Source: Laetmonice hystrix (taxonomy: Eukaryota). Taken from it: a stretch of DNA of 64,000 nucleotides. Position numbers and translations under genes: made by a program. Positions 38,260 to 56,134 of this stretch are shown in pieces. Each line of letters starts with the position of its first letter. The first letter of the stretch is position 1. The notes below the pieces were generated by a model. The model saw nothing but the letters and a program-made list of their open reading frames with translations, searched no databases and was not told where the DNA came from. The stretch covers positions 20,152,001 through 20,216,000 of the forward strand of contig OZ249436.1 in NCBI GenBank assembly GCA_965235115.1. The letters run 5' to 3'.

Positions 38260-41200
38260 CTGTAGCAAATAATAGACAAATAAGACTACAATGTTGTATT
38301 GGATAGGGCTAGGTTATAAATACTAATACAACATACATTTAAATTGTAGCTGCTCACAACTTGGCCTAGGCCTACTAATATTTTTTACATTCCTACCGCC
38401 TGCCGGTAAGCCAGTGGCAAATGGCTCGGCCTTATGCCATGGCAAATATTATATACCGGTATTCTATATAAATAGTAAATAAAGATGATACTTCCTTAGA
38501 AGGTACCGTACATGAATGGCAAGAAAATGCCTTTAAAATGCTAGGTCAATTTGGACAAGAGGTGACGAACAATTAATAATTAAGAGATAAGGGCCTTTCG
38601 GCTACCGAGGGCCATACCTTTTATTTCCTTTGGCTGGGGGCATGTCTTCTCGCAGAATTTCTTTTATTGTTTGTCTGTTGAGGCATGCATCGATATGTTG
38701 GTTAAAGTCATCCAATGAGAGGCCTTGCTTTCCTACGTTACACACTGGGCAGCACAATAAAATGTCCTCGCTATGCTGGCTAACGAAAGTCTCCTCTCTC
38801 TTTTCCTCCTTAGTTTGAGTGGCTTTCACGGATTTTGGATCCCCGCCAGACTCCCAGCTGTCACCCACTTTTGAAGACCTTGATGCTGCAGTGCCTTCAG
38901 TGGGTACATCGTCCGGCGATGGTCGGCTGGTGATACTGAGACACTGGTCTACATGTGCAGAAATCTGTTGTAGGTCTCGCAACCCTTGTGTTTGGTTACG
39001 GACAGGACACACATGATCAGGTAGTGATTCCTCATCCTTGACCTTAGATTCACATCCTTGGCTGACCTTTGCTGACACATTTGTTTTGTATAGATTGTCA
39101 TTTTTATGGGGGTCGCCATGTGGGTTTTCCATATTTGTAAACCAGCTGTTTGATTTGGTTGCATCACTAGAAGGGCCTGCCATGGTTTGATATCCAAGTT
39201 TCATGGGTGCCTGGATTTCTTTATTTTGGAATGGCAAATCAGTTTCGTTTTTACTAGCTAAACGTTTGGAATTGTTGTAGACCAATTTTTCCTTATTTTC
39301 GGTGTCTGGATTTACTTTTCCTACTCCTTTAATTTCAAATTTATAAAGAGAATTTGATGGTTGAAATGCATTGTCCTGTTTAAAATGCTCCATAACTGGC
39401 ACTGATTTAAAACTGTCATCAGTCAATAGCAAACATTCATCAATGTGTTCATTAAAACTCTCCAGAGTAGGTAAATTCATGCTTTTACTGCAAATGGGGC
39501 ATACATACGTAGTACCACGGTGCATGACACACCCAGATCTCAGGGTTAAGGTTCCATCATGTGTTTGATTGCCCAACTTTCCATGGCCCACATGTTCTTC
39601 AATAAAATGTGACCTTTCTGTTGTGCTATCTTTCAAAGTTTGAAGCGGCTGTTCTAATGCCAGTACTTTTCCTCCACTCCCTTCAATATTTGTAATAACA
39701 ACATCTTCTGATCTGTTGGCGTCATCTGCTGATGTAAATTCAGATTTACTTGGTCCTTGTTGCTTGCTGGGTTTTGTTTGCATACGTTGTAGTAAACTTG
39801 TAATTGTACTCTGGCGCTGCTCCACACCAGCATTCAGGTTTGACATTCTGACACCTAAAAGGAAATTTGGAATTGATCACGAGTTTTAAGGAATCTGGAT
39901 GAGCTAGTAAAGTCAAAAGCTGGAAATAGTATAGAGTCACAAAGGATATATGGCATCATATATTTCAAAGTATGGTCCAATAGGTGCTTGACTCACATGT
40001 TGATGTGAAACATTCAATCTTAAACTAGAAAAGGATGGGATGCCTGAAAAAACGAATCCACTCATCAGTTTTTGATTAAAAGGCTGTTCAGAATATGTCA
40101 CTAACCCATGAGCCTAAGCCGTAGAGGTTCTGGCTTACAGAGTTGTATTTCTGTTCTCAAGAGGTCGCTGGCAGCAGTATAGATCTGGTTGGCATCATTC
40201 GTAGGGTTCAGAAGAGTTTGTGCCCGTGTCTTGAGTTCAAACTTCACAGTTTTCAATTTTATTCCAACAGTTTTGCCCTGGAATTGTAAATGAAGAAAAG
40301 AATATATTTTGATTAAATGTTAGTACAGATCCACATGAAATATTCATTTTAGTAATTACATAGATTTACTTCATGGTCCTCTTGACACAAAACTCCAATA
40401 ATACCACATTCATAATAGGCTGCCATATTTATTGAAATCAGAGTCACGTCACATCGTAAAAGATCTCTAAAAGTAAAAGATCAGATATAATACAGACCAC
40501 CAATTGTTCCTCCTTTAAGTCTTCTGCAAGAGCTTTACTCAGTTCCTCACATTTGCTGTACAGTTCTGAAGGCTTGTTCAGCTCTGCAAACGTTCTGAAA
40601 CAGAATCCATGTAGCTACATAATCCACATCCCTGTATGCTCTTGGAGTTATCTTTGATCTGAATATTTTATCCTGTTTAGGCGTGGAGGATCAGTAGAAG
40701 TTTTCACGACCATGTTTTGGGGACGAAACATATGAAAAATCTTAAAGTTACCCTTGGCTTTAGAATAAAAAAAGTTTCATTAAGGAAACATAATCTTGTT
40801 GCACTGATTCTCTATTTTGATTCCCTCCTTTGCCCCCAAAAGGTTTGACACTGTCATGTGTGATGACCCCCTTTACAACAATATTTAACAAATAGTAGTT
40901 TACCTTTCTGTGCTCATACTTTTTCTCTCTTCATCTCTGTAAATGATAGTTCATTAAATGGTTATGAACAATGGTAGCTTCTGCAAATTCAATAATTTAT
41001 TGCACCATGGCAGTGAGGGATGGGTTTTGGTCGCGTTTCCTTCACGCATTGGGGCTAAAACTCAGCGTATCAGACATTACACCAAAAGGCTATAGCTAGA
41101 ACACTGACATTACAGTCGCAGATATGGGTGTCCGCCATGAATACAGATATTTAAATTTGACATACTCGTCTTGTAAAATAGTAACAATTTTCAAAGCCAA

Positions 41201-44200
41201 CTTGAATTACTCAGATTTGTATTGATGCAAAGGTTATTATTCAATGTTTGTATCCCAAACCTTTCAACTGTAGTTGAACCAATTCCAATTGAAACTTGTA
41301 GGAAGTGCTTGAATGAGATACTGGAGTAGAGGTGATGAAGTATGCCACGTTTTCTGTACAGATCTCTGCAAGTCTTCACGCCGATTCCACACAACATTGC
41401 CTCAGAGACTTTCCCTATACCACTGACCTACAACATGACAGTGGAAAAAGTGTTATATACTCAAGAATCAATAACTGTGAGCCTGCGTAATCTGAATTCA
41501 GCTGTGAAAAAGGTTGACATCATAAGTTAACACATCTATTTAATAACTCATGTACCCGTACTCTTCAAATGTAAAAATCTTTATGAAGAGTTAAATCTTC
41601 AAGAAATTAACAGGTCAAACTGGCCTGGGTTGAAAAACGTTCAAAGACTCATCTGGTCTCCCACATAACACCTCTTGACGTTCACACTTGCACTATTTTA
41701 AAGGTGCACAATTTGTCGACTGACTTTGCACTTTTCTTATGAAGATGTCTTAAATAAATATTCCTATCCTGAAAATAGCAAGTGAATTTACATCCCTATA
41801 TATTTGGTTCTCAATGTTGATATGCAGGGCATATTCAGCATAATGGATTGGGTTTGGAAGATTTTTGTTCTTTCCCATTTAAAGTTCTGGATGGTCTCTT
41901 AACTTGATTAGGTACAGATATTCATGTAGTACCGGTACATGGTATGCCAACCTTTCTTATCTGAAGATTCTCCACAAACTCCATCACAGCATCTACAGTT
42001 GAAGGGATTCGATACTGTCCATTTGGCTTGTTGCGATCTGAGCAAACCTTTGCTAACATTGTATTTGGGGCAATACCTGTAGGCGAAAATATAAAATATT
42101 GAAATCTTTTGTCATAATGATGCTACTGCACCTGTAGATTAAATAGCATAAACCTGATGATCCTCTTATATCTGAGCCTATCGGTATATGTCATTCTCTC
42201 AAAAAGATGAAGGCAAGCACCTGTTTAGGAATACTAAGGTCTGCATCACATGTCACAGTTCACATTAACGTATTGTGCACTACTAAGGGCAGTCTGCCTC
42301 AGCATAGTGCATACATAACAATAACTGTGTAACTGTGTATGTCCAAACGTTACGGACAGTGCTGAAGTACCATTCAAGAGCGTTACGGGGGTGGGGGGTA
42401 TCAGATTTGGCCCGAAATAGCGTTGCGTAATTTTTGAACGGCCCGTAAGGGTACCTGACCTGCACTAGCAGTAAGTTTTGTTTTCCAGTAGATCCTTTGT
42501 CTCATCTCATGTACAGCATCTTCAACAGAACGACCAAAAGTTTCATTGATTCCACAACTTTCATCAAGTATTCGCCCACAGGTTTTGCAGCAAGGAGCTG
42601 TTGAAGAGTTTTCAATGCAGGTGGATGCAGTTTCAGATGGATTAGCCCTAACTTCCACTGAGCTACGATATTGACTGAAATCTTTTTGTCCTATATCTCC
42701 ACCGACTGACTCCTGTAAACTTGGCGTGTTCGAATGAAGAGTCTTTGACGTTGTTTGTTGACAGTTACAGAGGTCTTCTGGGGAAGCCATTCTGAGGAAT
42801 GTCCTATCTGCGTCACTGGATGTCTCTCTCTTCTGAAGATGCTTGGTGAAGTCAAGGTAAGCCTCATCTAGACTCATGGGACAGAAGTTGGGATCATATT
42901 CATTCATGATAGCCCTGATCTCTTTACTGACGGCAGTGTACTTGTCAAAATGTGTCGGGACAATGACTAAATTGGGGCAGAGTTTCTTCCCAATAAACCC
43001 TGGCATGGCAGCTCTGACTCCATATCGTCTAGCCAGATAATTGGATGTTGACTACAACAACAACAAAAAACAATTAATTAATATTCGGTAGATCCTGTAC
43101 AAACCATTATGTGGAATTATTATTCATGTAAACTTTTGTCAGACAGTTATAAATGGAGAACGGATACATTAGCGTTGTAAATGGAGAATGGATACATTAG
43201 CTTTGGAAACATAAAAAACATGACAATTGTAACTTCAATGTTCAAGTACGGTGTACATTTCTTAAGCTTCAGGGACTTGTTGATTTAAGTCCTACACTTA
43301 CAAGCATAGAAGTCCCACCCACTGCCATGGGGACATTGCGTAGCCGAGGATTGTCTCTCATTTCAACTGCTGCATAAAAGGCATCCATGTCCACATGAAC
43401 AATCACACGGCTCAAATCTCTGCTGCTCTCCAACCGGGCCAATCTCAAATCTGCCTACAAGTAAAAGTGAAAACTTACTCACCCATTGCTTTATTTTAAA
43501 TACTGTTTTATTGATTTTTATAATAATGTTTGACGTGTAAGGAAAATCTCACTACTTTTATCATAAGTCTTTCTTTTATTTAAATTGGATAATTCATTTC
43601 ATACTAAGGGCTCATTATTCTTAACAATGGTAATACTATATCATTATGGATCAATCCATTTCATTTGACAAGTTACACCTCATACTCTCAAAACCTGCCA
43701 TACCTCCACTGTACCAGTATCAATCTCCTGGGGAGTTAGTGACTGAAGTCTCCTCTGCTGATCCTCCAATCTTGCTTTCAACTGCTGCTCCTTTTTCTGT
43801 TCATTTTCATAATACCTTGACCCTGGGTAATAGATAATACATGATAGAAATTAAAACACAATACTTTATACAATGTAGTGATTTAGTAGCCATAGAGATT
43901 CTTGCGATGATATAATCCTCTTAAAGAAAAAAGAATAAGTAGATATTAGTAGAAAATGGGACAGGTAGTTCATTCTTACCTTTCGATGCTTCAAAGATAA
44001 TTTTATTGATACGGTCTCGATCAAGGCCTTCCATTCCAGCTTTGTTATCATTAAGTTGCATCCTTGAAAGAAGAGGTTCCTTATCCTTCTTTGACCCATT
44101 ATCTTCCAATGTTGCTCTCTGAATTCCTGATTGGAGTACCATTGAAGTTTTACTGGTTAGATGACCACACACTTGGACGCTGGATCCTATGTCCCTTTTC

Positions 44201-46807
44201 TCATTACCTTAAATGACAAAGAGAGAGAGACTAGAGGCTGGTCTGTCTGTCTGTCTGTCTGTCAAGAAGCTGTTGCAGTATTCCAGATTTGAGTGAAGGT
44301 TCAACCTCCCATAAAATATTTACATTAAATTTAAAGACCTGCTCAATTATATACTCTGGGCAAACATAATCTGGTGAATGAGAAATGAAATTGGTTGTAT
44401 GTTTGAGCCTAGGCCTGGGGTCCGTCTATTGGTAGGATTCCAGTACTGGCAGTACTAGTAGTCTGAGTAGGCTTGGATACACTCATTTTAAGGGCAGATC
44501 CAAGGAGTCAGACAGGATCGAAGTCCACTATGTTCAGGGATATTTTTATCAAATCTACAAGGTGGGACATTTGAGATTTTGGACCTTTTTAAAAAAATTC
44601 GGACCTTTTTCTATGGGGGTGGTTTAGACCTCCAGATATTTCACAAAAGATTCAAAATTGTGGACCTTTCTTTCCGACATATGCCTCCCAAATTCTGGAC
44701 TTTTTGTTTTGGGGTTGTCAAAATTCAAGGGGGGGGGGGGGGCAATGCCCCCTCATCTGCAGCCCTGATAAAAATATCCCTGATGTTCCATAAATTAAAT
44801 ATAGAACATAGTATTACTATTATTTATTTGGATATTTTTTCATCCTCAAAAAATAATAAATATGTCTTAATTTAAGTATGATAGTAATTAAATCTCTCTG
44901 TACAAAGGAAGTGGCAGGGTTTGATGAGATACCAACTAAATTTATAAAAACGCTGAGTAAACACATAGTGAAACCAATGACAATAATTGCCAATCAATGT
45001 ATACAACAGCAAAAATTTCCAGACAATATGAAAAGGGCTAATATTATACCATTGTACAAAAAAAAGGATAAATTAAATAAAGACAATTATAGATCTGTAA
45101 ATCTTCTGGTGACCTTATCAAAGGTAATGGAAAAACTAATGCACATCCAAATTGCTGAATATATACAACCAAGTCTACATAACTATCTCTCAGGCTTCCG
45201 CAAAGGCCACGGTTGTCAAGACATACTGTTAAGAATGATAGAAGACTGGCGTAAAGCGATGGACAATGACAAAATAGTTGGGGTAGTGGCAATAGATCTG
45301 TCAAAAGCATTCGACTGCATGTCTCATGGATTACTTCTATCTAAACTTCATGCTTATGGTTTTACATCAGAAGCCTGCACACTGCTTAAGTCATACCTAG
45401 TGGACAGACTACAACGAGTTAAAATAGGTGATACGTACTCAGAATGGGTAACGAATATCAAGGGTGTGCCACAAGGTTCAATACTCGGTCCTTTACTATT
45501 TAACATTTTCATAAATGACTATCTTTACTATGACATAAACTCAAAAATCTGTAACTATGCAGATGACAATACAATCACAAATATTGGCTCTAATGTAAAT
45601 GAAGTTAAAGAAAACTTGAAAAATGATTGCATCAAAGCGATAGAATGGTTTCAGGCAAATCATATGAAAGCTAATGCGGAGAAATTTCAATTGATGTTTC
45701 TGAAGAAAAATGATACAGTTAACAAAGAAAGCCTGATGCTGAATAACACCTCCATAACTGCAACCGAATCAATAAATGTACTAGGTATAGAGATTGATAA
45801 TAAATTGAAGTTCAATATTCACATAGACTACCTATGTAGCCAAACAAGTAAACAAATACATGCACTAAAAAGAATAAAACACTACCTAGATAAACAATCC
45901 AAGACCACTATCTACAACAGCTATATCAGCAGTAACTTTAACTACTGCCCAATAGTATGGATGTTTACATGTAAAACTAACTTAGAAAAACTCGAAAGCA
46001 CAAACAAAAGGGCTTTGAGATTTATTGAAAATAATGACCAGTCATCTTACGAACAGCTATGTAAAAATACAAAGAGATTAACTATAAAGCAGAGGTGCAT
46101 TAAAGCGGCGGCTATCCAAATGTACAAGATAAAGAACAAGACAGCACCACAATACTCCCAAGAAATGGTTGTAATAAAAGAGCAGTCATACAATCTAAGA
46201 GACAATGATATCTTTAATATACCTAGCTTTCACTCGATAAACTACGGTAAAAAGAGCTTTAGCTACTATGGTGCCAAGCTATGGTCCCACATTCCAGGGG
46301 AAATCAAAAGTAGAGACACGCTCAGGTGCTTTAAATCTGCTATAACACAGTGGTTACTTGATGGTGGGGACATGTTAAATATTACCTTTGCTTAGATTAA
46401 TACAGTGACAGTGAACAAAACAGGTTGAGCTTGAATAATGGAATACCTGACTAAGTAAGGTGTGGAAAATACCTGACAAGGAACAGTAGAGGCTAGATGA
46501 AGACCAATAGATTTTAGATTACAATGTCTAAGACCATCCAAACCATCCATCCCAACATACTTTGTTCCTATATAGTTTACATTGTAATTAAGGGTTTATG
46601 TCAATGTTATAACTGATACGGGACTGTTGTTTGTTTATTTGTTTGTTTGTTTGTTTGTTTGTCTGTTTGTTTCAAAAACTGTCTAATAATGCAGTAGTAA
46701 GTCTCTAATAATTTAGTCGTGCAGAAGCCTAGTGCTTAGATTCATATGCTACATTTGTAACTGTGTACACATGTGACTCTTGGATTTAATACGACTATAA
46801 ATAAAAT

Positions 46808-46839
<32 letters not shown>

Positions 46840-47343
46840 CATACATACATACATACATACATACATACTGGGCTTTCAGTTTGTTTTTGAGTAGACGTAG
46901 TCGTACGTAAGAGCTATGGCTAGTATAGCCAGGCTAGCACAGTAGCAGTGCCAGTAGGCAGTAGCACTACTACCAGGCACCATCACTTTTTTTGTCATCC
47001 TCAAAACAAAAGTCAAATGCAATCAACATCTCGAATGCCATGTAGAGCACATGGCCTTGCGATTTTGGCATGAAAAACTGCCATTAGGCCTACTTTAGTT
47101 TATGTCAAATTATGTTTCGGAAAAGGAACTAGGATAGATCTCACCTGCTAGTCCGACGGCCGGGTCACACTCCCTGTCCCAAGCCCCAGGGCCAGGCCCA
47201 GGCCCAGGGCCAGGCCCAGGCCCAGGGGCAGGGCCAGGCCCAGGGGCAGGGCCAGGCCCCAAGTGAAATGGCTGCGACCAGTTCTCATCCTCCTCATCGT
47301 CATTATCACCCATGATGGCAGCGTCCTCGACTTCCAGACTCAT
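38142..47343 (-). CDS. POLK: DNA polymerase kappa (Y-family, DinB homolog), about 1079 aa
   Basis: Exons 47145-47343, 43980-44207, 43704-43822, 43302-43454, 42460-43051, 41952-42076, 41261-41427, 40904-40936, 40498-40594, 40106-40277, 38618-39854, 38142-38259 (3240 nt, phases consistent). Motifs: N-clasp [111 protein letters not shown]4 fingers, C-terminal KKKK and PIP-like RTIDAFL. Confidence 0.95.
38618..39854 (-). CDS. POLK: POLK exon 11 (UBZ-containing C-terminal region)
   Basis: Long open frame with three C-x2-C...H-x3-C type units (the middle one degenerate). Confidence 0.9.
40106..40277 (-). CDS. POLK: POLK exon 10
   Basis: [19 protein letters not shown]...LRLRLMG (little finger/PAD). 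Confidence 0.93.
40498..40594 (-). CDS. POLK: POLK exon 9
   Basis: [32 protein letters not shown]; donor could alternatively lie 3 nt earlier. Confidence 0.85.
40904..40936 (-). CDS. POLK: POLK exon 8 (33-nt micro-exon)
   Basis: [11 protein letters not shown]; cag/gtaaac borders. Confidence 0.9.
41261..41427 (-). CDS. POLK: POLK exon 7
   Basis: [23 protein letters not shown] (HhH/thumb). Confidence 0.93.
41952..42076 (-). CDS. POLK: POLK exon 6
   Basis: [24 protein letters not shown]...IRK. Confidence 0.93.
42335..42445. mobile_element. Harbinger-like MITE end fragment just inside POLK intron 5
   Basis: Minus-strand terminus GGGCCGTTCAAAAATTACGCAACGC; similar sequence TTCAAAAATTGCGTAACGCC at about 9737. 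Confidence 0.45.
42460..43051 (-). CDS. POLK: POLK exon 5
   Basis: [26 protein letters not shown]...SLDEAYLD...KTKLTASAG. Confidence 0.93.
43302..43454 (-). CDS. POLK: POLK exon 4
   Basis: [36 protein letters not shown]. Confidence 0.95.
43704..43822 (-). CDS. POLK: POLK exon 3
   Basis: [20 protein letters not shown]... Confidence 0.9.
43980..44207 (-). CDS. POLK: POLK exon 2
   Basis: [28 protein letters not shown]; aag acceptor, gtaag donor. Confidence 0.88.
44535..44782. mobile_element. hAT-like MITE with 5-bp TSD
   Basis: ATGTT|CAGGGATATTTTTATCA ... TGATAAAAATATCCCTG|ATGTT (perfect 17-bp TIR); internal GGACCTTT repeats. Confidence 0.85.
44878..46395 (+). CDS. LINE ORF2 remnant: reverse transcriptase domain and C-terminal region (505 codons, uninterrupted)
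   Basis: Motifs [71 protein letters not shown]. Confidence 0.93.
   Translation: MIVIKSLCTKEVAGFDEIPTKFIKTLSKHIVKPMTIIANQCIQQQKFPDNMKRANIIPLYKKKDKLNKDNYRSVNLLVTLSKVMEKLMHIQIAEYIQPSLHNYLSGFRKGHGCQDILLRMIEDWRKAMDNDKIVGVVAIDLSKAFDCMSHGLLLSKLHAYGFTSEACTLLKSYLVDRLQRVKIGDTYSEWVTNIKGVPQGSILGPLLFNIFINDYLYYDINSKICNYADDNTITNIGSNVNEVKENLKNDCIKAIEWFQANHMKANAEKFQLMFLKKNDTVNKESLMLNNTSITATESINVLGIEIDNKLKFNIHIDYLCSQTSKQIHALKRIKHYLDKQSKTTIYNSYISSNFNYCPIVWMFTCKTNLEKLESTNKRALRFIENNDQSSYEQLCKNTKRLTIKQRCIKAAAIQMYKIKNKTAPQYSQEMVVIKEQSYNLRDNDIFNIPSFHSINYGKKSFSYYGAKLWSHIPGEIKSRDTLRCFKSAITQWLLDGGDMLNITFA
46810..46868. repeat. (TACA)n microsatellite forming the LINE tail
   Basis: About 14-15 perfect tetranucleotide copies. 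Confidence 0.95.
47145..47343 (-). CDS. POLK: POLK putative coding exon 1 (acidic + Gly-Pro repeat N-terminus)
   Basis: ATG at 47343; donor G|gtgag in phase with exon 2; no recognisable conserved motif, so supported by phase and position only. Confidence 0.7.
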
Positions 47344-47549
47344 AATTAGTCTTCAAACAAAAACAATCACACTCTCACGTTTCGCAGTGTTGATCACATT
47401 TGCTCCATTACACAATTTACAGTGACAGTTGCCAAGTTGGAGCTAGTCCATCAACGGACCCACCAACGGCAAAGCCTGGGTAGCCACTCTGCGCACAGCG
47501 AGTGGACTGTTTCCGGTCTAAGTTGGAGCCACATTGCCCGCTGTGAGTA

Positions 47550-47605
47550 CGACCGTCACGTGACTTTCGGTGATCACATGACCGAAGCGTATCATGTGAC
47601 CGATC
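47550..47605. promoter_or_regulatory. CLEAR/E-box/M-box cluster in the POLK / glycoside-hydrolase bidirectional promoter
   Basis: GTCACGTGAC at 47555-47564, ATCACATGAC at 47573-47582 and ATCATGTGAC at 47591-47600, starts spaced exactly 18 bp apart, between divergent ATGs at 47343 and 48099. Confidence 0.7.
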
Positions 47606-48098
47606 CCGCTGTGTTGTGTTTTGTACGGAGAGTCGGAGCTGGAAGGTGGCAGATGATGGTGCCAGTTCAACTCAACTGTTGTGATGTCGCCATTTCTCAG
47701 ATTAGGGCCGAGTAGCCAGAGATGAAAGCGCAAAGGAACAGTAGGATAAATGTTGAGAATGTAAACGGCCGGATCGATGAGCAGTCACCCAGCTTCATCC
47801 TGACGTTTTGACTTGGCCCGTGGCGTGAAGCCGACTGCCGTGGCCGCGTAGGCCGTAGCCGTAGACTGTTGGTTTGCTCATAGACCTAGAGTACTCTACG
47901 TCTATGGTTTGCTGAAGTGAAAGTGAAAGTCCCGCTGTGGTCTTGTCGGTTGAGTGGACAGTCTATTGTTTCAGCGTGAGGCTGTATATTGTGATTTTAG
48001 ATTGTGGGCACTATAGAGAACGCCTCATCTCCTTGGTATTCTGCCCTGTTGTATACGCCACAGTCAAGACGGAGGTCTCGAATTAAGCATCGTCAGTC

Positions 48099-48168
48099 AT
48101 GGAAGGAATGGCTCGAAGGAAGCTGACTTGTCTGTGTCTGCTTGTGGTTTCGTTATGCTGTGTATCAG
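48099..48168 (+). CDS. GH-like gene exon 1 (signal peptide)
   Basis: MEGMARRKLTCLCLLVVSLCCVS; G|gtattg. Confidence 0.8.
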
Positions 48169-51100
48169 GTATTGTGTGTAGCAGGATTCTGCAGAGTAAA
48201 AACCGTATTACCGTACACCCAATTTGACTTTGAGACACAAATAAAACCAACCCTATAGCCTGCCCCTAACCCTAACCCAAGCATTAATTTGTTTGGATTC
48301 AGTAATCAATCAAACAAACATCTTATGTAGCTTTTTGCCAGCTAAATATAAACTGCCGAGGCTATAGTTTAATACATAATACAGGTATCATTTTGATCAG
48401 GAAATTGGTAGATTTTGCTGCACAGGGTCAGTAGAAACACTATCCATTTATTAATACAATGCATGGCCATTATACAAATAAATATTGTAATATTTAGTCC
48501 TGTCGAGGTGGCAAGGTATACATGTCTCCCAACTCCATTGACTCACAGTCTCTTGTGTATGATGGAAATGGACAAATGTGTGGCCTTTTATATGTCATAT
48601 TAAATTTAATTTAAATGTCATGATTGCTTACTTTTTGTACAGGAACACAAAGGAGCAAGTCTGGCAAGCTGCTTGTGTCATCTGGAGGCAGATTGGAGGT
48701 GGTTTGTAACAAGGATGGCAATTACCAGGTGTTAGTTGATGACCAGATTTGGCTCACAAGTGCCCCGCCCTATTTCCAGGTGAGCTCTTGTCTTAGCTAT
48801 AAGTTCTGCAGAGACACCTGACTTTCTATGTCAAATTTAAGTTGCCGTCTCCCATATCATAAGGGTTTCTGAAAGTGTCAGCTTTTGTTTTTGAGGGATT
48901 GGCTCTAGGGGCAGAGGGAATATTTATGGATAATCCTTAAGTAAACTGGCTTTACAATTTAGAGGTGCCTATGTTATGTTTTTAATTGTAAATGCTGTAC
49001 ATACCCCGGTATGTTATATTCACAGGCGAATGGTTACAAATATGGTACACGTGATGGGAGTCTCATTCTGGCAGGTTTGTCACCCATCTCAGGAACAGAT
49101 CGAGTGGGACCCTGGAGTGGTGTCGCATTTGACTATCTTGCAGGACAAACTCCCATTAGAACATCACTTAGAGGTTACAGGAATGTACCTGCAGTGGTTT
49201 TTGGCCAGGTATGTGGTAGCTTTGTTTTTGTTTAAGATTAAAATACCATCTTGAAATCTGGTTCACAAACTGAAACTTATATATAGCCTTTTATAAGTCC
49301 AAAAACAAACAAGTTTGTGGATGTTCTGGAGCATTTCTACACCTGATTACAGGTAGATAAGACACATGTTATCTGATTGCTTTTTAGGAGTTCCCAAAAG
49401 GCGCCAATGGCACGAGTATAGGACGAAGAAATGTCACATTGTCTGTTTTTCCCAACTTTAAAGTGGGTGGATCGGAAATTGATTTAGGTTATCTAGCTTA
49501 TGGCGATAAGTTTGTTGGTGATATGGACAAAACAATTGGAAGGTGTGTATGAAATTTGCATCAGGTATTTTTAAGAATTTGGCTTAAAGTTGATAAGAAG
49601 GTAGGACACTTATGAAAAAATGTGGAGATAAATAGGCATGGCCTGATGATAAGGGTATTACAAAGTTCAAGGCACATGCACAAGCATGGTCTTACTTATA
49701 AAACATCCTAACTAAAAGGATCAAATGTTACTTGACTAGATCTATGCTGACAACCTCAGGAGTAAAGCCTTGACTGCTATTAAAAATTAGTTATGAATGA
49801 TAAATAAAAAGTTACAAAAACTAAAGGAAGCTGCAAGAACCTCAATATTTAAGAAACGTACAATAGTTAGCCAATTGCGAAGCAAACCTATAACTATGAC
49901 TCGCTCCATTTCCCTGAGACATGACCTTAGCTTTGTGTTTGTTGTGATGTCTGTTACAGGTGGGGCAGTCCTTGGACACGGCTCAATGATGGCATTGATG
50001 GTGGGCCTCTCATTCTGTTTGACAAGGAGACGAACGCTCTTGTCATGTCCCCCTTCAACTCCTTCATGGTCGCGTCTCCGTTCTTTGATCGAAATAATAG
50101 TTATTACGGATGGGGAATAACTGGTGAAGTTGAGATGTTGCCACCAAACTACAAACTTGAGACGATACTGTTCTACAGTGATCAAGGCATTCGGCAGGTA
50201 TGGTAAATGATTGATTTTAGATGATACTATCTCCTTTTGCTTGTTTCAAATAAAAATAAAATGTGCCAAAGATTCATACCTGGTAGTGATAAAGCACTTC
50301 TAATGTAGCACTTTCATAGTAAGATTTGTTATCTATAAATGTCAGTAAGCATGCACTGTGAAGACCTGTTATGTCCAGACTTTACCTTGCAGGCAATGTC
50401 AGAATGGGGAGTGGCAATGCGAAGGCTTTATAAAAAGACTGCAAGTCTGCGAAATGGCGATTTCACAAATAATTATCTGAGCTACTGGACAGATAATGGT
50501 AGAATCTGTGTTTCCATATGCCCCACTCTATATTATTAGCATTGAAGGTAAAATGTATAAAGTTACCAGGCCTTTAGTTATGATTTTCTGTCATCCGTAC
50601 CATAGATTCTGTCTACCAGAGTAAAATAAACCATCTCCTTAATGCATTGTAAATGATGAGGAACGTCCTGTTTTATATGTTTCACCCCATTGTCCATGGG
50701 CATTGTGCGGATGTGTTTACTATACGTAATTTGATGTAAAGAAATGCAGTCTGTTATACTGGTGCATTGTAGCTAGGGATACTCAAATATTTTGGTATTG
50801 AATGACTCCTGGCAGTGCTTCCCTCTACATTGTATTGTGATATTCTTGAAAATGATACATATTTCAGGTGCTTTTTACGTCAATTACTATGTGAGTGATT
50901 TTCTCATTCAAAACATGACGTATGAGAAGGCGCTCCTGCGTTACACAGATTTTGCAAAACAGATCAACATTCCGTACAGGTTTGATATTACATTTAGTCT
51001 TAATAGAAGTACATAATGTAATCTCCTTTAACATCAGTTTAACTTTTAATTCTAATTTAATTCTAATTTGATTCTGCTGTTGTAGGTACTGATGAGGGTA

Positions 51101-54100
51101 CAATGCATGTATAGTTTAGGATGGCAAGACTTTTCCATAACATTTTTACTGCCTGGGGTGAACTTTCCTGAAACCTGTCTGCTTTAAGCGATCAAACTTA
51201 TTTTAGGAAATACAATTGGTAAAATGTGTATACGGTATGTGGTGTGATATAAAAGACACATGATGAATGTTACAAAGTCATTATATCAAGAGTGTTATGT
51301 AGCAGGGGTGAAGGGTACATTTGTCTATTCTGTACTTGCAGATCCATACAGTATTCTGTTTGGTATCAGACATATGGGGGCACGTATGGGGGGACTACCC
51401 TTTGGAAATCAAATCCTAAGATGTTGCCAAACGGCATGGCGTAAGTAATGCACATAATTTAACACTACACATCTCATATAAGAATGTAAATCTTTATATA
51501 GTCTTCACCTATTCAAAATTATGAGTGTTTTATTCACTTCAGCTGTAAAGTTGAACATTATTTTAATGGCATAAAGAAATGTCTCTTCGTGACTGGCCTG
51601 TCTGCTCTGTCGCTCATTTTGCTTGATTGTGACCTCTATGTTAGATTTATGAGGGACAGGACTCGACTTTCAAGTACTTCACATAATAGATGGTGGTAAG
51701 TTTGGCCTAGCTTATAGTCATGCGGCATGAGCTTTCCTGTTCAACATTTGTGATGATATGGATAGTCCATGATAAAGAATAACCACAACATTATAAAGAA
51801 ATCAAGAACTCTAGATAGATGTTTAAGACACTTGTGTTATTTAAGACAAAATATTTTCTAAGCCTTCATATAATAGAGAAAATAACGATGTTATAATCTT
51901 CAGGACAATGTTTGGTTGGTGTTTGGTTTCATTGAAATGCATTGGACATGTTTTGTTTGCAGAAGTAAAGTTTCAGCAATCTTTTGGATTGATGTTTTGA
52001 ATTTATAGGTCTTCCAAAACGCCATATGCAAAACAGAATGGTGGGAAATACAATTTCATCATTGAAAAGAAATATGCGCTGCCACAGGATGAAAATTTCT
52101 GGACAGACCTGTTTGCAGTTTCTCAGAACTGGGGCATCAAGAATTACATGCAGGTAAGAAATGTGTAAATTTCTCTCACCAGATCGACCCTGGAACCAAA
52201 ATATGAAAAATAATGTACAAACTTCCATAAAATAGGACTGGTTGCAACTGCCAATGGAGCTGATGAACGCCACAAACCGTGACGTGTACGTGGCTGCCAA
52301 CTGGTTGAATCAGATGGGGCTCGGAGCGGAGAAAAACGGCATCACCATCCAGTACTGCATGTCTCTCAGCCGTCATATTCTACAGAGTCTGATGATTCCA
52401 GCTGTCACTCAGGTTGGTGGCCTCTGTCCTTACGGTCGGCGACAATTGTGGAGTCGTGTGGATCAAAACAGCCCCTTAAATGTCAACCAATACTGCCACA
52501 AAACTTGACTGTAGGCTCAGATTAACGTTTATAAACTCACCAAAAGATTAGGAGTGTATTTCAAACGGAGTGATTTATGCAAATATTCACGTAAATATCT
52601 GCTTGTCGACCTCTCCTGTCTACACATAGGCTTTCCACTATATCCACCAGATGTCGTTGCTGTTGGAGCTGACTGGATTCCAAAGCTGTCTCCTGTATGA
52701 ATTAACCAAATGAAAAATTTAGAAACAAAAAGCACTGAAATAAAATCCTCTATATTTTTCAGTATGTTGTATATTTGAGAGGTTTTCTAGTCTGTATTCA
52801 TAGCAGATTATAAGTGTTTAGATATACCCCGGTACAGTATGCAAATGCCTACAAAATGCTGTATGCTGACATCCAATGTCTTGAGGTGTAAGCCTCCTGT
52901 CATGCAGCCAGTGTACTTTATATTACAATGCCTTGCATCCTGACCTTGTCTAGGCCAGAGCGAGTGATGACTACCAGCCCAGTCCTGATTACTCTTATGA
53001 ACAATGGAGGATAGGCATCACATCAATGTTTGCTGATGCTGTTGGGTTGGCACCATTCAAAGATACATTCTGGACGACCTCGGACCAGCCAGGCAATTTT
53101 TACAAAGGTATTATAGATCAGTTACTAACGTCCAGGACACAGCCCTGTATAAAGGTATGCAGGGAGTGAGTTGTGTACTTGGACTGAGTTACTGTATGAG
53201 TGGGTGAAAAGTGACAGAAAATAACGACCGTTTGTCAGACTTTGAACCCAAGAGTATAGGAAATCTATGTAGTTTATTGAAACAGGAAAGAAATGTGTGT
53301 GTTTTGTTTGTTATGGGTGAGCAAGAAAACCGTTCTGGCTTACCCTCGTGGTACATAGTAGGTCTGAAGGAATATAACTTATGCAACACATGCATGTATG
53401 AGTAATATGATTTTGATAATTGTAGGTCGGGATCCTTACGTGGAACTGCAGTCTCTTGTGGCATCTTTGTCAACTGGTCCCGTTGGGCCGGGCGATATGA
53501 TCAATGGTACCAACAGAACATTGTTAATGAGGTATGAAAACACCAACCATACGAAATCTTTAACAGGGAACTCAAACTACTTGTTGCCAGCAAATACACA
53601 AGACTTGCGTTCTTGTTGAAAGGTTTTCATTCTTATAAATTGATTAAAGTGATAAGTACAGCTCATGTATATTTCAGCTTTTCCTTTTCACTTTTTTTTC
53701 TCACCTAGATGTTGTAATGAAGACGGACTTATACTGAAGCCATCACGCCCTGCCTTTCCCGTAGACGACCAGCTCATCCAGGTAGGCTCTGTCTGAGGCC
53801 TTCGTGTCCATTTGATCCTTGCCACGTATGAATGTATCTTTTCATTACTCGTAATGAACAGCATGAGTTGGTAGGCCCATAACGCTAACATACCACAATG
53901 CAGTGGTGTGATTTTCTGAGCTGTGAACTGATGTCTTCACCATATTTCTATGGTTCAGACTGCCTTTGGAGGTCTGAATGGTCCAGCAGGCGAAGTGTGG
54001 ACCACTTTCTCTGACATCGGAACCTACAGGTTTGGTATCATATTCGGGGCAGCCATGGACGACAGTAACACGTATGCGCTGGGACCCAAACAAGCAGGCT

Positions 54101-54778
54101 TTGGACAAAAGGTAACTTTACTGCCGGAAAACAACCTTAAATCCACATGTGAAGTATTGTGATGAATTGTAACGTGAAATGCCGGTACAGTCAAACTACT
54201 CACCGACTTATGTTTACAATTTTTTTGTAAGTCATGAAATGCCTTTAGACATCTTTCCATTGCTGAGAGGACTTCTGTGTACATCTGATTGTTTCTTTAC
54301 AATTTTCAACTATAACTTTTACTGAACCACTTTTACTGAACCACAGTTGAGAACAGTTCGTAGGTAAATGGAGGTATAATTTATGTTTTATCCTTTGTAG
54401 TTTGCTCGGAGTCGTGTGTACAGTTTCCGGGATCCGCCCTCCGCGTTACTGCCTGAGTTTAGCGACTCTCACCCAGTTACACTAACGAGTGGATGCAGCC
54501 GCGGTCACTTCTGCCTTTTCTACACATCACCAATATTTTACTTCCGTGGTAACGAGGTTATCATTTTGGGTGAGTTGTCCAAATGGATTCCAGTGTCCCC
54601 AAACAGGGTGACTGACATCTCTTATGACGAGGATGACTTTTCTGTTACCCTGGCAGGAGCGGTGGGTGAGATGGTCTCATTCAGTGCTCTATACCATGGA
54701 ACGTATCTACAGTTTTATTGTGTCATATCAGAAGCTGGCTTTGCTACAATTAGCTTCAAAGACACTGCATGTCATTAG
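48099..54778 (+). CDS. Uncharacterised secreted glycoside hydrolase, clan GH-D / GH36 (raffinose synthase/Sip1-like), about 778 aa
   Basis: Exons 48099-48168, 48643-48779, 49026-49208, 49388-49542, 49960-50197, 50393-50498, 50868-50979, 51342-51440, 51645-51695, 52009-52153, 52236-52412, 52954-53107, 53426-53531, 53709-53781, 53959-54111, 54401-54778 (2337 nt, all GT-AG, phases consistent, no internal stop). Signal peptide; motifs LSYWTDNG, HNRWW, YMQDWL, YCMS, RASDDYQP, PFKDTFWT, LSTGPVGPGD, DGLILKPSRP; several N-x-S/T sequons. The gene model is strong; the family call is inferred from motif similarity. Confidence 0.85.
48643..48779 (+). CDS. GH-like gene exon 2
   Basis: TQRSKSGKLL...DGNYQVLVDDQIWLTSAPPYFQ. 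Confidence 0.85.
49026..49208 (+). CDS. GH-like gene exon 3
   Basis: ANGYKYGTRDGSL...GTDRVGPW...AVVFGQ. Confidence 0.87.
49388..49542 (+). CDS. GH-like gene exon 4
   Basis: EFPKGANGTSIG...SVFPNF...LGYLAYG. Confidence 0.87.
49960..50197 (+). CDS. GH-like gene exon 5
   Basis: WGSPW...GGPLILFD...VMSPFNSFM...WGITGEV...GIRQ. Confidence 0.87.
50393..50498 (+). CDS. GH-like gene exon 6
   Basis: AMSEWGVAMRRLYKK...DFTNNYLSYWTDNG. Confidence 0.88.
50868..50979 (+). CDS. GH-like gene exon 7
   Basis: AFYVNYY...NMTYEKALL...IPYR. Confidence 0.87.
51342..51440 (+). CDS. GH-like gene exon 8
   Basis: SIQYSVWYQTYGGTYGGTTLWKSNPKMLPNGM. Confidence 0.82.
51645..51695 (+). CDS. GH-like gene exon 9
   Basis: FMRDRTRLSSTSHNRWW; tag/gtaag borders. 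Confidence 0.82.
52009..52153 (+). CDS. GH-like gene exon 10
   Basis: SSKTPYAKQNGGKYNF...FWTDLF...WGIKNYMQ. Confidence 0.88.
52236..52412 (+). CDS. GH-like gene exon 11
   Basis: DWL...WLNQMG...IQYCMSLSRHILQSL..PAVTQ. Confidence 0.88.
52954..53107 (+). CDS. GH-like gene exon 12
   Basis: ARASDDYQP...QWRIGITSMFADAVGLAPFKDTFWT. Confidence 0.88.
53426..53531 (+). CDS. GH-like gene exon 13
   Basis: RDPYVELQSLVASLSTGPVGPGDMINGTNRTLLMR. Confidence 0.88.
53709..53781 (+). CDS. GH-like gene exon 14
   Basis: CCNEDGLILKPSRPAFPVDDQLIQ. Confidence 0.88.
53959..54111 (+). CDS. GH-like gene exon 15
   Basis: TAFGGLNGPAGEVWTTFSDIG...GFGQK. Confidence 0.87.
54401..54778 (+). CDS. GH-like gene last exon
   Basis: FARSRVYSF...ILGELSKWIPVSPNRV...DTACH*. 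Confidence 0.88.
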   Translation, partial: FARSRVYSFRDPPSALLPEFSDSHPVTLTSGCSRGHFCLFYTSPIFYFRGNEVIILGELSKWIPVSPNRVTDISYDEDDFSVTLAGAVGEMVSFSALYHGTYLQFYCVISEAGFATISFKDTACH

Positions 54779-54820
54779 ATGACACTGCATGCCATTAGGT
54801 GACACGGCATGTCATTAGAT
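54761..54820. repeat. 20-bp tandem triplication spanning the GH-like stop codon
   Basis: GACACTGCATGTCATTAGAT / GACACTGCATGCCATTAGGT / GACACGGCATGTCATTAGAT. Confidence 0.85.
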
Positions 54821-56134
54821 GCATATCGGAACCCTGTATATGCTGTGAGATCTTTTGTTTTCATTGAAAAGGATATTAAGTCAAAATATATTGGTAATCC
54901 GTGACGCCGCCCATATTGATTACAAATGTTCATGCTTTCATTGCATGATAAACTTCAATAATGAACAGTGATAAACTGATGACAGTATGACATGTATATT
55001 CATATTTTTACCAAGTGAAGTGTGATCTTCAGTTGGAAGAAATTTGTTTTTTATTATTTGTTTTTGAGCTTATCTAAAGAAATATTTTTTCGGTATACCT
55101 GAAGGTAGATTTTAAGCCTTTACCTACAACCTTTTATATGATATAGTTGTATATGTATATGTTGTACGCGGATCCTAAATAACATGTTTTAGAGGATGAT
55201 GTGTTCAATGCTTTAAGTGTTTTTACAGTGAGCTACAAACAATTCTTTATCACAGAATAAACTTTGTGACGATAGGGGGCGCTGCGGTATAACCTCGGTC
55301 AGGGCCGCGTCCCACTAGCGCCATCTATGGGCTCACCCTATATTCCTAAGTTTGTCCCATTTGTGCACATATTAACGTGCAGTGCAGTTTATTGTGTTAT
55401 GATACACACTGCCAGTGTATCCTGTCTATCCCTATATCAATCTTTGTATTTATAGGCCTACCCACAAATAATGTCAAGATGAAAATGTTGATTGTGATTT
55501 AGATGCTCATATTGGGAAAAACACGCAACAATTTTCACTCCTTCAATACTGGATACTACTATACTGGATGTTAATGTTGGATTGTACTGATACCTTGTGT
55601 AGAGTTGTATTAGTGACAAATTGTGGTAATCATACTGCACTTTTACACATACTACACTTAAAGTTCAAAACATTCCTATACACATGTATATATGATTTAC
55701 ATATAATGCCATAATTTACTCCTTCCTCAATTTGATATTTAGAAGTATAGCATCAATCAGTATAGCAGGAAGAAGCGAGGAAGAAGAATGTTTTTCTCAG
55801 GGCGAGTGCAAAGAGAGGGAGTGTACTTATTTCCTTAAATTTGAGGCCCATTTTGGTGGCTCTGGGATGATTTTTATTGGTTCCTTACCACTCGGCAAGA
55901 GGTGGAAGAAACCGGAGTACGCTCGGATCTGACCGCAGGTAACTTGAGAACGGAGTGAAGGCCAACGACTTTAATCACCACATGTTATTAATTTTGTAAA
56001 ATTACTCCTCCGTCGCTTTTTTTATATTGCCGTTAAAGTACGTCTGTATTGCATCTGGAACTAATGTACAAATGTATTTAGTGTAAAAATCATGCCGGCC
56101 TCTGTACACAAATTGTCCAAATTTACCCAGCCTG

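What the first reader, a model, noticed from the sequence alone, without database searches (positions are those of the whole stretch)
48099..54778. Intact 16-exon animal gene for an uncharacterised secreted GH36/raffinose-synthase-like glycosidase
Seen: a complete, phase-consistent 778-aa spliced ORF with a signal peptide and multiple N-glycosylation sequons. Known: raffinose synthase/Sip1-type GH36 enzymes carry, in order, a K-x-D nucleophile, CM(S), RASDD(F/Y)xP acid/base, DMF, SGGPxYxSD and DGxIL..P motifs. Inferred: MQD-WL, YCMS, RASDDYQP, KDTFW, STGPVGPGD and DGLILKPSRP are the equivalents, so both catalytic Asp residues appear retained. I do not recognise a characterised vertebrate counterpart. 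It may be an invertebrate family of secreted or lysosomal alpha-glycosidases or transglycosylases of unknown substrate. Its intron richness argues against recent horizontal transfer.
Basis: partly seen in the sequence, partly recalled or inferred. Interest (0 to 1): 0.72.

Follow-up and report, generated by a model that had tools for sequence, protein, structure and literature searches.

The report
Unnamed sugar-cutting enzyme, altered annelid-type pocket
This is a real, spliced animal gene for a secreted enzyme from a large unnamed family that folds like plant raffinose-splitting enzymes; this copy keeps both catalytic residues but has lost a sugar-gripping residue that almost all relatives keep, so it probably cuts a different, still unknown sugar.

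Summary
The gene is real: 16 GT-AG exons give 778 aa with no internal stop. Contigs of one run join 10 of 15 introns exactly, and all 9 listed exonic allele differences are silent. It belongs to a large family with no Pfam or NCBIfam model of its own, found in invertebrates, choanoflagellates, amoebozoans, Asgard archaea and scattered bacteria. A homologue's model matches the plant Sip1-type GH36 enzyme AtAkaGal3 best (Z 27.6). Asp433 and Asp497 are the likely nucleophile and acid/base, 64 residues apart as in AtAkaGal3. Capitella teleta, its sister in the tree, shares both changes. Best reading: a secreted or lysosomal retaining alpha-glycosidase with a rebuilt O3/O4 side of the sugar pocket. 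The substrate is unproven; bacterial gene neighbourhoods hint at uronic-acid glycans and Asgard ones at inositol compounds. It is a good enzyme-discovery target, not a new kind of system.

The parts
48099..48168 (+). Exon 1: start codon and signal-peptide-like hydrophobic stretch (aa 1-23)
   Evidence: hydropathy; intron 1 joined in run X4
48643..48779 (+). Exon 2: start of N-terminal beta-sandwich domain
   Evidence: introns 1 and 2 joined in X4
49026..49208 (+). Exon 3: N-terminal beta-sandwich domain
   Evidence: tblastn to homologues; intron 2 joined in X4, intron 3 not covered
49388..49542 (+). Exon 4: N-terminal beta-sandwich domain
   Evidence: no X4 cover
49960..50197 (+). Exon 5: end of N-terminal domain
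   Evidence: intron 5 joined in X4
50393..50498 (+). Exon 6: linker helix and barrel strand 1 (Y-W-T-D-N-G; Asp295 at 50492-50494, kept in 317 of 331 relatives)
   Evidence: introns 5 and 6 joined in X4
50868..50979 (+). Exon 7: loop with a small insertion shared with Capitella, and helix 1
   Evidence: intron 6 joined in X4
51342..51440 (+). Exon 8: barrel strand 2, variant motif Q-Y-S-V-W-Y (51349-51366) lacking the family Asp of Q-x-D-S-W-W-Y
   Evidence: DNA-type contigs of X1 span 51133-51556 with one other letter, which lies in the intron; no X4 cover
51645..51695 (+). Exon 9 (51 nt): barrel strand 3, H-N-R-W-W (His380, Arg382)
   Evidence: aligns without gaps to the family motif; the Capitella gene model lacks the equivalent stretch
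52009..52153 (+). Exon 10: helix 3 and barrel strand 4; Met431 (52148-52150) where 307 of 337 relatives have Glu
   Evidence: intron 10 joined in X4
52236..52412 (+). Exon 11: putative nucleophile Asp433 (first codon, 52236-52238) and strand 5 C-M motif (Cys473)
   Evidence: Asp in 335 of 337 relatives; follows strand 410-415 in the homologue model; introns 10 and 11 joined in X4
52954..53107 (+). Exon 12: strand 6 R-A-S-D-D with putative acid/base Asp497 (52969-52971); strand 7 K-D (527-528)
   Evidence: aligned to AtAkaGal3 443-447; Asp in 337 of 344 relatives; introns 11 and 12 joined in X4
53426..53531 (+). Exon 13: strand 8 G-P-V-G-P-G-D (Asp566)
   Evidence: joins in X4
53709..53781 (+). 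Exon 14: D-G-L-I-L-K-P linker out of the barrel
   Evidence: joins in X4
53959..54111 (+). Exon 15: first C-terminal beta domain
   Evidence: joins in X4
54401..54778 (+). Exon 16 coding part: C-terminal beta domains and stop
   Evidence: intron 15 joined in X4
54779..54983 (+). 3' untranslated sequence on the same spliced contig (minimum extent; a separate X4 contig covers 55098-55425)
   Evidence: table 8

Best explanation
An intact, expressed gene for a secreted or lysosomal retaining alpha-glycosidase of an unnamed clan GH-D family whose nearest solved relative is the plant Sip1/raffinose-synthase branch of GH36. Shown: gene structure, splicing of 10 introns, family membership, fold of two homologues, conservation of both Asp. 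Inferred from clan GH-D chemistry: Asp433 at the end of barrel strand 4 attacks the anomeric carbon to form a glycosyl-enzyme, and Asp497 after strand 6 protonates the leaving group and then activates water. Inferred from alignment: the family's -1 pocket is already rebuilt relative to alpha-galactosidases (Lys to Glu, second Asp to Ser, a near-invariant His-x-Arg on strand 3, an Asp on strand 1). This annelid-type copy is rebuilt again on the side that binds O3/O4 of the sugar (strand-2 Asp deleted, strand-4 Glu to Met, first Trp to Val). I therefore expect it to be active, but on a sugar that differs at C4 (4-O-methylated, 4-deoxy, 4-linked or of opposite configuration) from the family's usual substrate, in digestion or lysosomal turnover. 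For the family's usual substrate my single best guess is a sugar with an acidic C6 (a hexuronide), at about 30%.
For: Gene and splicing. 9 of 9 listed exonic allele differences are synonymous third positions (the table listed 40 differences and withheld 82). Fold: homologue P0004 model pLDDT 96, pTM 0.93, Foldseek best 7exf E 1.8e-26, VIA Z 27.6 over 601 residues, next family Z 21.7; the Capitella variant gives the same top hit, E 5e-18. Profile hit to 7exf E 1.5e-6 with CM, RASDD, P-x-x-D, GP and DG in register. Asp433-Asp497 spacing 64 equals Asp383-Asp447, the mutagenesis-supported pair in PMC9912918. 94 of 102 near-invariant columns are kept. The double change occurs in 2 of 331 sequences covering both sites, the window and Capitella, which are sisters with FastTree support 0.999; the JGI fragment P0001 (60% identical) also has Met. 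In AtAkaGal3 Asp243, Asp244 and Lys381 line the -1 subsite and Lys381 contacts O3/O4. Uronate hint: Arg on strand 3 in 54 of 54 prokaryotic rows of A3; GH88/105 + KduI + SDR beside L044 and L076, GH28-like + UxuA beside L053 and L058.
Against: No activity is known for any member I could find, and the window's own spliced protein was not folded; both models are of homologues, and the Capitella model lacks strand 3 through a gene-model gap. I had no coordinates, so the superposition of Asp433 on Asp383 was not done: the nucleophile rests on strand order, spacing and conservation, and the sequence alignments to 7exf start only at residue 422. The strand-2 mapping to D-D-G-W rests on a weak profile match to 6jhp (E 0.058-1.5). 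Exons 8 and 9 had no spliced-contig cover. Only two full sequences carry the variant. Loss of an Asp kept in 332 of 334 relatives could equally cripple the enzyme. Uronate-related neighbours were seen at 6 of the 80 loci (L044, L053, L058, L060, L073, L076), all in a bacterial subfamily that differs at strands 6-7, and most neighbours were unrelated to sugars.
Confidence: 0.6

Rival explanations
1. An ordinary alpha-galactosidase or alpha-GalNAcase in a divergent sequence dress: the pocket changes are compensated and the enzyme does what GH27/GH36 enzymes do.
For: Nearly all top structural matches are alpha-galactosidases or galactosaminidases. Four distant GH36 proteins and one distant GH31 protein were active on pNP-alpha-galactoside in a screen (PMC6442616, table passage), and a new clan GH-D family, GH_New2, is an alpha-galactosidase (bioRxiv 2026.05.19.726164, section 8).
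Against: Of the seven -1 residues tabulated for AtAkaGal3, this protein by my mapping keeps Arg and the two catalytic Asp but not Lys, either Asp of the pair, or the strand-3 Trp. Only 1 of 33 family proteins scanned passes the PF05691 cut-off.
Confidence: 0.15
2. A catalytically weak or dead sugar-binding protein (pseudoenzyme or lectin-like) kept under selection in annelids.
For: It loses the second most conserved acid of the family. Mollusc paralogues such as P0124 and P0128 show that this family does spawn copies lacking the acid/base Asp.
Against: Both catalytic Asp, Arg493, Cys473, His380, Arg382, Asp295, Asp528 and Asp566 are kept in the window. The degenerate mollusc copies lose 22-23 of 105 near-invariant columns, against 8 of 102 here and a median of 4.
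Confidence: 0.14
3. A transglycosidase (raffinose-synthase-like) that moves a glycosyl unit to an acceptor such as an inositol or an oligosaccharide, rather than a hydrolase.
For: The closest structure has both hydrolase and stachyose-synthase activity and binds galactinol (PMC9912918). One Asgard clade sits between a myo-inositol-1-phosphate synthase and ITPK-like kinases (5 of 20 archaeal loci and 9 of 17 loci).
Against: The animal protein is secreted-type and no donor such as galactinol is known to me in animals (recalled). The N-terminal domain has no W-W pair matching the Sip1 W-W box (sequence). The Asgard synteny is within one tight clade and may be inherited rather than functional.
Confidence: 0.09
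4. A pseudogene, assembly artefact or chance exon chain.
For: Five introns lack spliced support, and the missing Asp looks like a one-codon deletion.
Against: Open frame over 16 exons, 10 exact joins, silent allele differences, the same deletion in Capitella, and X1 contigs that match exon 8.
Confidence: 0.02

Closest known systems
Arabidopsis alkaline alpha-galactosidase AtAkaGal3 (PDB 7EXF-7EXR; Sip1/raffinose synthase branch of GH36, Pfam PF05691)
   Same: N-terminal beta-sandwich, (beta/alpha)8 barrel and two C-terminal beta domains (Z 27.6, 601 residues aligned); C-M, R-A-S-D-D, G-P and D-G motifs in register; 64-residue spacing of the two Asp.
   Different: 12-15% identity; signal-peptide-like start and sequons; K-x-D is E-Q-D in the family and M-Q-D here; the Asp pair is D-S in the family and absent here; no W-W box; near-invariant His-x-Arg on strand 3.
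GH27 and other GH36 enzymes (rice 1UAS, human alpha-galactosidase A, Thermotoga TmGalA, Geobacillus AgaA, Flavonifractor galactosaminidase)
   Same: Clan GH-D barrel, Z 17-22; the strand-2 region aligns weakly with the D-D-G-W region of 6JHP.
   Different: The conserved patch of Trp, Asp-Asp, Trp, Lys and Asp described for GH36 (PMC11762096) is not kept, apart from the nucleophile.
GH_New2 alpha-galactosidases (bioRxiv 10.64898/2026.05.19.726164)
   Same: [quoted passage not shown]
   Different: Described with one 91-aa C-terminal domain and Zobellia, Bacteroides and Paenibacillus-type members, whereas this family's model has two C-terminal beta domains and only 2 of 301 genomes sampled from the phylum of L056 (record title Rikenellaceae) had a full match.
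Capitella teleta CAPTEDRAFT_195295 (uncharacterised; P0087)
   Same: 48% identity over 651 columns; same Asp deletion, same Met, same small insertion after strand 1; sister in the tree.
   Different: Its database gene model lacks the 17-residue stretch of exon 9 and carries a duplicated segment; no function is known.

Membership tests
Clan GH-D | (beta/alpha)8 catalytic barrel | tested here: met
   Models of homologues P0004 and P0087 match clan GH-D structures first; the window protein itself was not folded.
Clan GH-D | Nucleophile Asp after strand 4 and acid/base Asp after strand 6 | tested here: met
   Asp433 and Asp497 follow strands 4 and 6 of the homologue model; the acid/base is aligned directly; spacing 64.
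Clan GH-D | The two Asp superpose on the catalytic pair about 6.5 A apart; retaining stereochemistry | not testable with these tools
   Model coordinates are not returned; no assay.
GH36 Sip1/raffinose synthase (PF05691) | Domain layout with N-terminal beta-sandwich and two C-terminal beta domains | tested here: met
   VIA alignment spans model 25-748 against chain 5-749.
GH36 Sip1/raffinose synthase (PF05691) | R-x-x-D-D acid/base motif | tested here: met
   R-A-S-D-D at 493-497.
GH36 Sip1/raffinose synthase (PF05691) | K-x-D nucleophile motif with the Lys that binds O3/O4 | tested here: not met
   Met in the window; Glu in 307 of 337 relatives; Lys in 2 of 102 rows of A3.
GH36 Sip1/raffinose synthase (PF05691) | Asp-Asp pair on strand 2 (Asp243/Asp244) | tested here: not met
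   Family D-S (Ser in 312 of 334); the window has neither Asp. The mapping rests on strand order and a weak match to 6JHP.
GH36 Sip1/raffinose synthase (PF05691) | W-W box in the N-terminal domain | tested here: not met
   By inspection of the translation, the only W-W pair is at 383-384, in the barrel.
GH36 Sip1/raffinose synthase (PF05691) | Score above the Pfam gathering cut-off | tested here: inconclusive
   0 of 14 exon peptides and 1 of 33 full-length relatives pass; the joined window protein was not scanned.
GH36 Sip1/raffinose synthase (PF05691) | alpha-galactosidase or galactosyl-transfer activity | not testable with these tools
   Needs an assay.
Unnamed family (alignments A1-A3) | Full-length profile match and near-invariant columns | tested here: met
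   739 bits, E 1e-223; 94 of 102 columns kept.
Unnamed family (alignments A1-A3) | Strand-2 Asp of D-S-W-W-Y | tested here: not met
   Absent in the window and Capitella; present in 332 of 334 others. This defines the variant subfamily.
GH_New2 (2026 preprint) | Sequence similarity to B2K_10610 or zobellia_334 | not testable with these tools
   Sequences and supplements not available.
GH116 non-lysosomal glucosylceramidase (label carried by P0091 and P0256) | GH116 catalytic domain, an (alpha/alpha)6 barrel (recalled) | tested here: not met
   P0256 has no Pfam hit at E 0.05 and the family model is a (beta/alpha)8 barrel; the label looks like a propagated misannotation.

The most novel reading that the evidence does not exclude
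The family is a fourth-type clan GH-D lineage, shared by Asgard archaea and many eukaryotes and apparently lost from the usual model animals, that cleaves alpha-linked uronic acids or glycosyl-inositols (for example glucuronosyl-inositol lipids), an activity I know of in no clan GH-D family. The annelid-type gene here is a specificity switch, made by deleting one near-invariant Asp, to a 4-O-methylated or otherwise C4-modified sugar.
Probability: 0.15. Interest if true: 0.8.

Novelty: new variant of a known kind. Interest (0 to 1): 0.52.

Why it matters
The family is large (8479 proteins at E 0.001 and 1738 at E 1e-30 among 50%-identity representatives; the weak tail may include Sip1-type proteins). 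It is expanded in molluscs and present from sponges to tunicates, yet it has no family model, no solved member and no assigned activity in what I could search. One assay would annotate a probable new CAZy family, give marine invertebrates a missing digestive or lysosomal activity, and test a link to Asgard inositol metabolism. The window/Capitella variant set against a canonical member is a natural experiment on how a clan GH-D pocket changes specificity.

Tried and rejected
No whole genome is held for the window, so paralogues in this genome were not searched; within the window no second copy was seen. No RNA holder listed. Pfam on 14 exon peptides gave nothing; NCBIfam on 6 relatives gave nothing above cut-off; single-sequence PDB search with P0004 gave nothing. 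A search for more members of the variant with Capitella residues 355-490 returned only Capitella among 28 candidates. A degenerate DNA pattern for the variant motif gave one metagenome hit, L081, with no other part of the gene: a chance match. Three attempts to fetch bacterial Sip1 proteins for a profile-profile alignment found none in 5, 201 and 301 genomes. L101, a GH27-like protein, aligned to the family only in the N-terminal domain (probability 66%), so it did not bridge the barrel. X4 gave no cover of introns 3, 4, 7, 8, 9. Nine paper searches for this family or its context showed no paper describing it; the library lacks most subscription journals and accession-level searches were not made. 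An Asgard origin was considered and not claimed: the tree (FastTree, 202 rows, 416 columns, midpoint display only; rows under 200 columns such as P0001 dropped) separates most prokaryotic from eukaryotic rows but has no outgroup. Absence from vertebrates, insects, nematodes and fungi was not tested: none appears among the 120 listed of 335 hits, and the 150 rows carry no names. Searches of earlier findings by sequence and place gave nothing on this gene.
Full report
Observation. Reading the window and joining exons in a script gives 16 exons between 48099 and 54778, all introns GT-AG and 82-541 nt long, 2337 nt, 778 residues and a stop. The only clearly hydrophobic stretch is at the N-terminus, which fits a signal peptide; no signal-peptide predictor was run. 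Four public runs hold the region, none on record as RNA. I laid three of them. X1 and X2 behave as DNA. Contigs of X4 skip exactly introns 1, 2, 5, 6, 10, 11, 12, 13, 14 and 15, that is 10 of 15, and these joins are absent from X1 and X2, so X4 behaves as spliced RNA from the same coded sample. Introns 3, 4, 7, 8 and 9 were not covered. Of 40 listed single-base differences (82 more were withheld by the tool), 9 fall in coding exons and all 9 are silent third positions.

Family. Exon 12 found 19 longer proteins. The full-length chiton protein P0004 then found 335, of which 120 were listed. The named ones are 'uncharacterized' or 'hypothetical' proteins of molluscs (often several per genome), hemichordates, amphioxus, tunicates, echinoderms, annelids, rotifers and a sponge; one carries a glucosylceramidase label. 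The window protein is 40-48% identical to the best 30. A profile search of 1.84 billion representatives gave 8479 hits at E 0.001 and 1738 at E 1e-30. Twenty look-ups named a crustacean, a calcareous sponge, two choanoflagellates, Diplonema, Pelomyxa, Phalansterium and Protostelium; 10 of the 20 had no organism label. In one genome per prokaryotic species, 101 stretches encode relatives and 80 were kept. By record title, 14 of the 80 are Asgard archaea, 2 Bathyarchaeota and 4 unnamed archaea; most of the rest are Myxococcota/Deltaproteobacteria, Verrucomicrobia and other mainly uncultured bacteria. 15 of 201 genomes sampled from the phylum of an Asgard locus hold the family. So the family is wider than invertebrates. 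Pfam has no model for it: 1 of 33 relatives passes PF05691 and 0 of 6 pass NCBIfam. The ESM Atlas places it next to Sip1-type clusters by features and by structure.

Fold and catalytic residues. The window's spliced protein was not folded. The P0004 model is confident (pLDDT 96, pTM 0.93). Its best Foldseek match is Arabidopsis AtAkaGal3 (7EXF, E 1.8e-26); VIA gives Z 27.6 over 601 residues with 14% identity, and the next entries, GH27 and GH36, score 21.7 or less. A profile including prokaryotic members hits 7EXF at E 1.5e-6 and aligns C-M, R-A-S-D-D, P-x-x-D, G-P and D-G in register from residue 422 on. PMC9912918 (I read the outline, parts 1-2 of 3 of the results, and all figure legends and tables) gives Asp383 of K-V-D as nucleophile and Asp447 of R-A-S-D-D as acid/base, both supported by alanine mutants, and lists Asp243, Asp244, Trp307, Lys381 and Arg443 in the -1 subsite. 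In the window, Asp497 is the aligned acid/base. Asp433 follows the fourth barrel strand of the homologue model, is kept in 335 of 337 relatives and lies 64 residues before Asp497, the same spacing as in the plant enzyme. The nucleophile assignment is a strong inference; it was not superposed, because coordinates are not returned.

What differs from GH36. The family has Glu two residues before the nucleophile (307 of 337), where GH27/GH36 have Lys, and D-S-W-W on strand 2, which a weak profile match aligns with the D-D-G-W of the GH36 enzyme 6JHP (E 0.058). It also has a near-invariant Asp on strand 1 and His-x-Arg on strand 3 (Arg in 54 of 54 prokaryotic and 41 of 48 other rows of A3; the prokaryotic loci were selected by the strand-1 motif, so that column is biased). 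That the second Asp of the pair binds O6 and the first binds O4 is recalled from GH27/GH36 structures, not read here; that Lys381 contacts O3 and O4 is in the legend of Fig. 2. Losing the O6-side Asp and gaining an Arg is what one would expect for an acidic C6, which is the basis of my hexuronide guess.

The window keeps 94 of 102 near-invariant columns, but two of the losses are in the pocket. Strand 2 reads Q-Y-S-V-W-Y: the profile alignment treats it as a one-codon deletion of the Asp, which 332 of 334 other sequences keep; the exceptions are Capitella teleta P0087 (same deletion) and a degenerate limpet copy (Asn). Strand 4 has Met for Glu. Of 331 sequences covering both sites, 299 keep both, 29 change only the Glu, 1 changes only the Asp, and 2, the window and Capitella, change both. 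The two are sisters with support 0.999, nested among animal sequences, and share a small insertion after strand 1. X1 contigs match exon 8. This is an inherited subfamily trait, not an error. The Capitella model, despite a gap in its gene model, still matches 7EXG first. A JGI fragment, 60% identical to the window, also has the Met. Two searches for further members failed, so the variant rests on two full sequences.

Gene neighbourhoods. I scanned 210 of 214 nearest neighbours of the prokaryotic loci (four of L077, a near-duplicate of L076, left out) and 84 of 124 further ORFs from 20 chosen loci. Most neighbours are unrelated to sugars. Two patterns recur. First, uronate catabolism: GH88/105 pairs with KduI and an SDR beside L044 and L076, and a GH28 or pectate-lyase-like gene downstream in L053, L058, L060 and L073, followed by UxuA in two; these belong to a bacterial subfamily that differs at strands 6-7. 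Sulfatases occur beside L020 and L063, GH4 and a BNR protein beside L028. Second, inositol: one Asgard clade lies next to a myo-inositol-1-phosphate synthase and ITPK-like kinases in 5 of 20 archaeal loci and 9 of 17 loci (the sets overlap), and in no non-archaeal locus. Asgard ITPK1 homologues are described in PMC6900528; the five passages I saw and a search for operon, adjacent, neighbor and synteny showed no mention of neighbours. Both patterns are hints about relatives, not about this gene. In the window the gene lies head-to-head with a Y-family polymerase gene, with no functional link seen.

How it most likely works. A signal peptide sends a glycosylated four-domain enzyme to the lysosome or gut lumen (inferred). 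It cleaves a terminal alpha-D- or beta-L-glycoside by double displacement with Asp433 and Asp497 (inferred from clan GH-D). Its pocket no longer has the two charged groups on the O3/O4 side, so it should prefer a sugar that differs at C4 from the family's usual one (inferred). I put this at 0.6, a plain alpha-galactosidase at 0.15, a pseudoenzyme at 0.14, a transglycosidase at 0.09 and an artefact at 0.02.

Comparison with what is known. It works like a Sip1-type GH36 enzyme in fold and chemistry, but fails the Lys, Asp-pair and W-W box tests, so I do not file it as a member. Distant clan GH-D proteins have often turned out to be alpha-galactosidases (PMC6442616, one table passage; bioRxiv 2026.05.19.726164, section 8 and passages), which is why that rival keeps weight. 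GH_New2 of the preprint could not be compared by sequence because its supplements are closed; its described layout and members differ. PMC11762096 (first of two parts read) lists the conserved GH36 patch that this family lacks. Nine searches (listings only, apart from the papers named) showed no paper on this family, within a library that lacks most subscription journals. Other notes of this scan describe further unnamed GH36-like families (unchecked), so such families are not rare.

Verdict. Real gene, correct broad fold, unnamed family, and an unnoticed pocket change shared with Capitella. New variant of a known kind; interest 0.52.

Noticed in passing
L036, L038, L046, L048, L052, L083, L085, L087-L091, L093, L096: In one Asgard clade a membrane-anchored member of this glycosidase family sits next to a myo-inositol-1-phosphate synthase and one or two ITPK-like ATP-grasp kinases, with a BacA/UppP gene next in L036, L048 and L052. 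This may be an archaeal inositol-glycan or inositol-lipid module and deserves its own look.
   Followed up: partly
window 38602-47316 (-): A Y-family DNA polymerase gene (IMS domain at 42404-43051; probably polymerase kappa) lies head-to-head with the glycosidase. Its likely start codon at 47313 is 786 bp from the glycosidase start, and its likely first exon encodes a Gly-Pro repeat. X4 contigs cover 47210-47473 and 47595-47792.
   Followed up: partly
window 44860-46395 (+): A 511-codon open reverse-transcriptase frame (Pfam RVT_1, E 1e-28) of a LINE-type element, inside an intron of the polymerase gene and on the opposite strand.
   Followed up: no
window 36551-37024 (-): Exon of a FAM174-like membrane protein gene (PF06679, E 2e-10).
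   Followed up: no
window 54760-54822: Three head-to-tail copies of a roughly 20-nt unit begin in the last codons of the gene and run through the stop codon into the 3' UTR (seen by eye).
   Followed up: no
window 47000-47567: Summed contig depth in the DNA-type runs is 50-150 times that of the gene body, so this stretch holds a multicopy or low-complexity sequence.
   Followed up: no
P0124, P0128, P0100, P0107, P0150 (abalone and limpet paralogues): Mollusc copies with degenerate pockets: P0124, P0128 and P0150 lack the acid/base Asp, and P0100, P0107, P0124 and P0128 end in a hydrophobic tail that may be a membrane or GPI anchor. Possible pseudoenzymes.
   Followed up: no
P0087 (Capitella CAPTEDRAFT_195295): The database gene model lacks the 17 residues that exon 9 encodes here and has a duplicated segment near residues 143-230 with low model confidence: probably annotation errors.
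   Followed up: partly
L001 and L002: Two bacterial MAG sequences (Armatimonadota, Bryobacterales) fall on the eukaryote side of the tree: transfer or binning error, untested.
   Followed up: no
L101:1501-3636: A GH27-like protein (weak match to isomalto-dextranase) that shares the family's N-terminal domain and also has Ser after the strand-2 Asp, but keeps K-x-D.
   Followed up: partly
P0091, P0256: Family members labelled 'non-lysosomal glucosylceramidase' in NCBI, apparently a propagated misannotation.
   Followed up: partly
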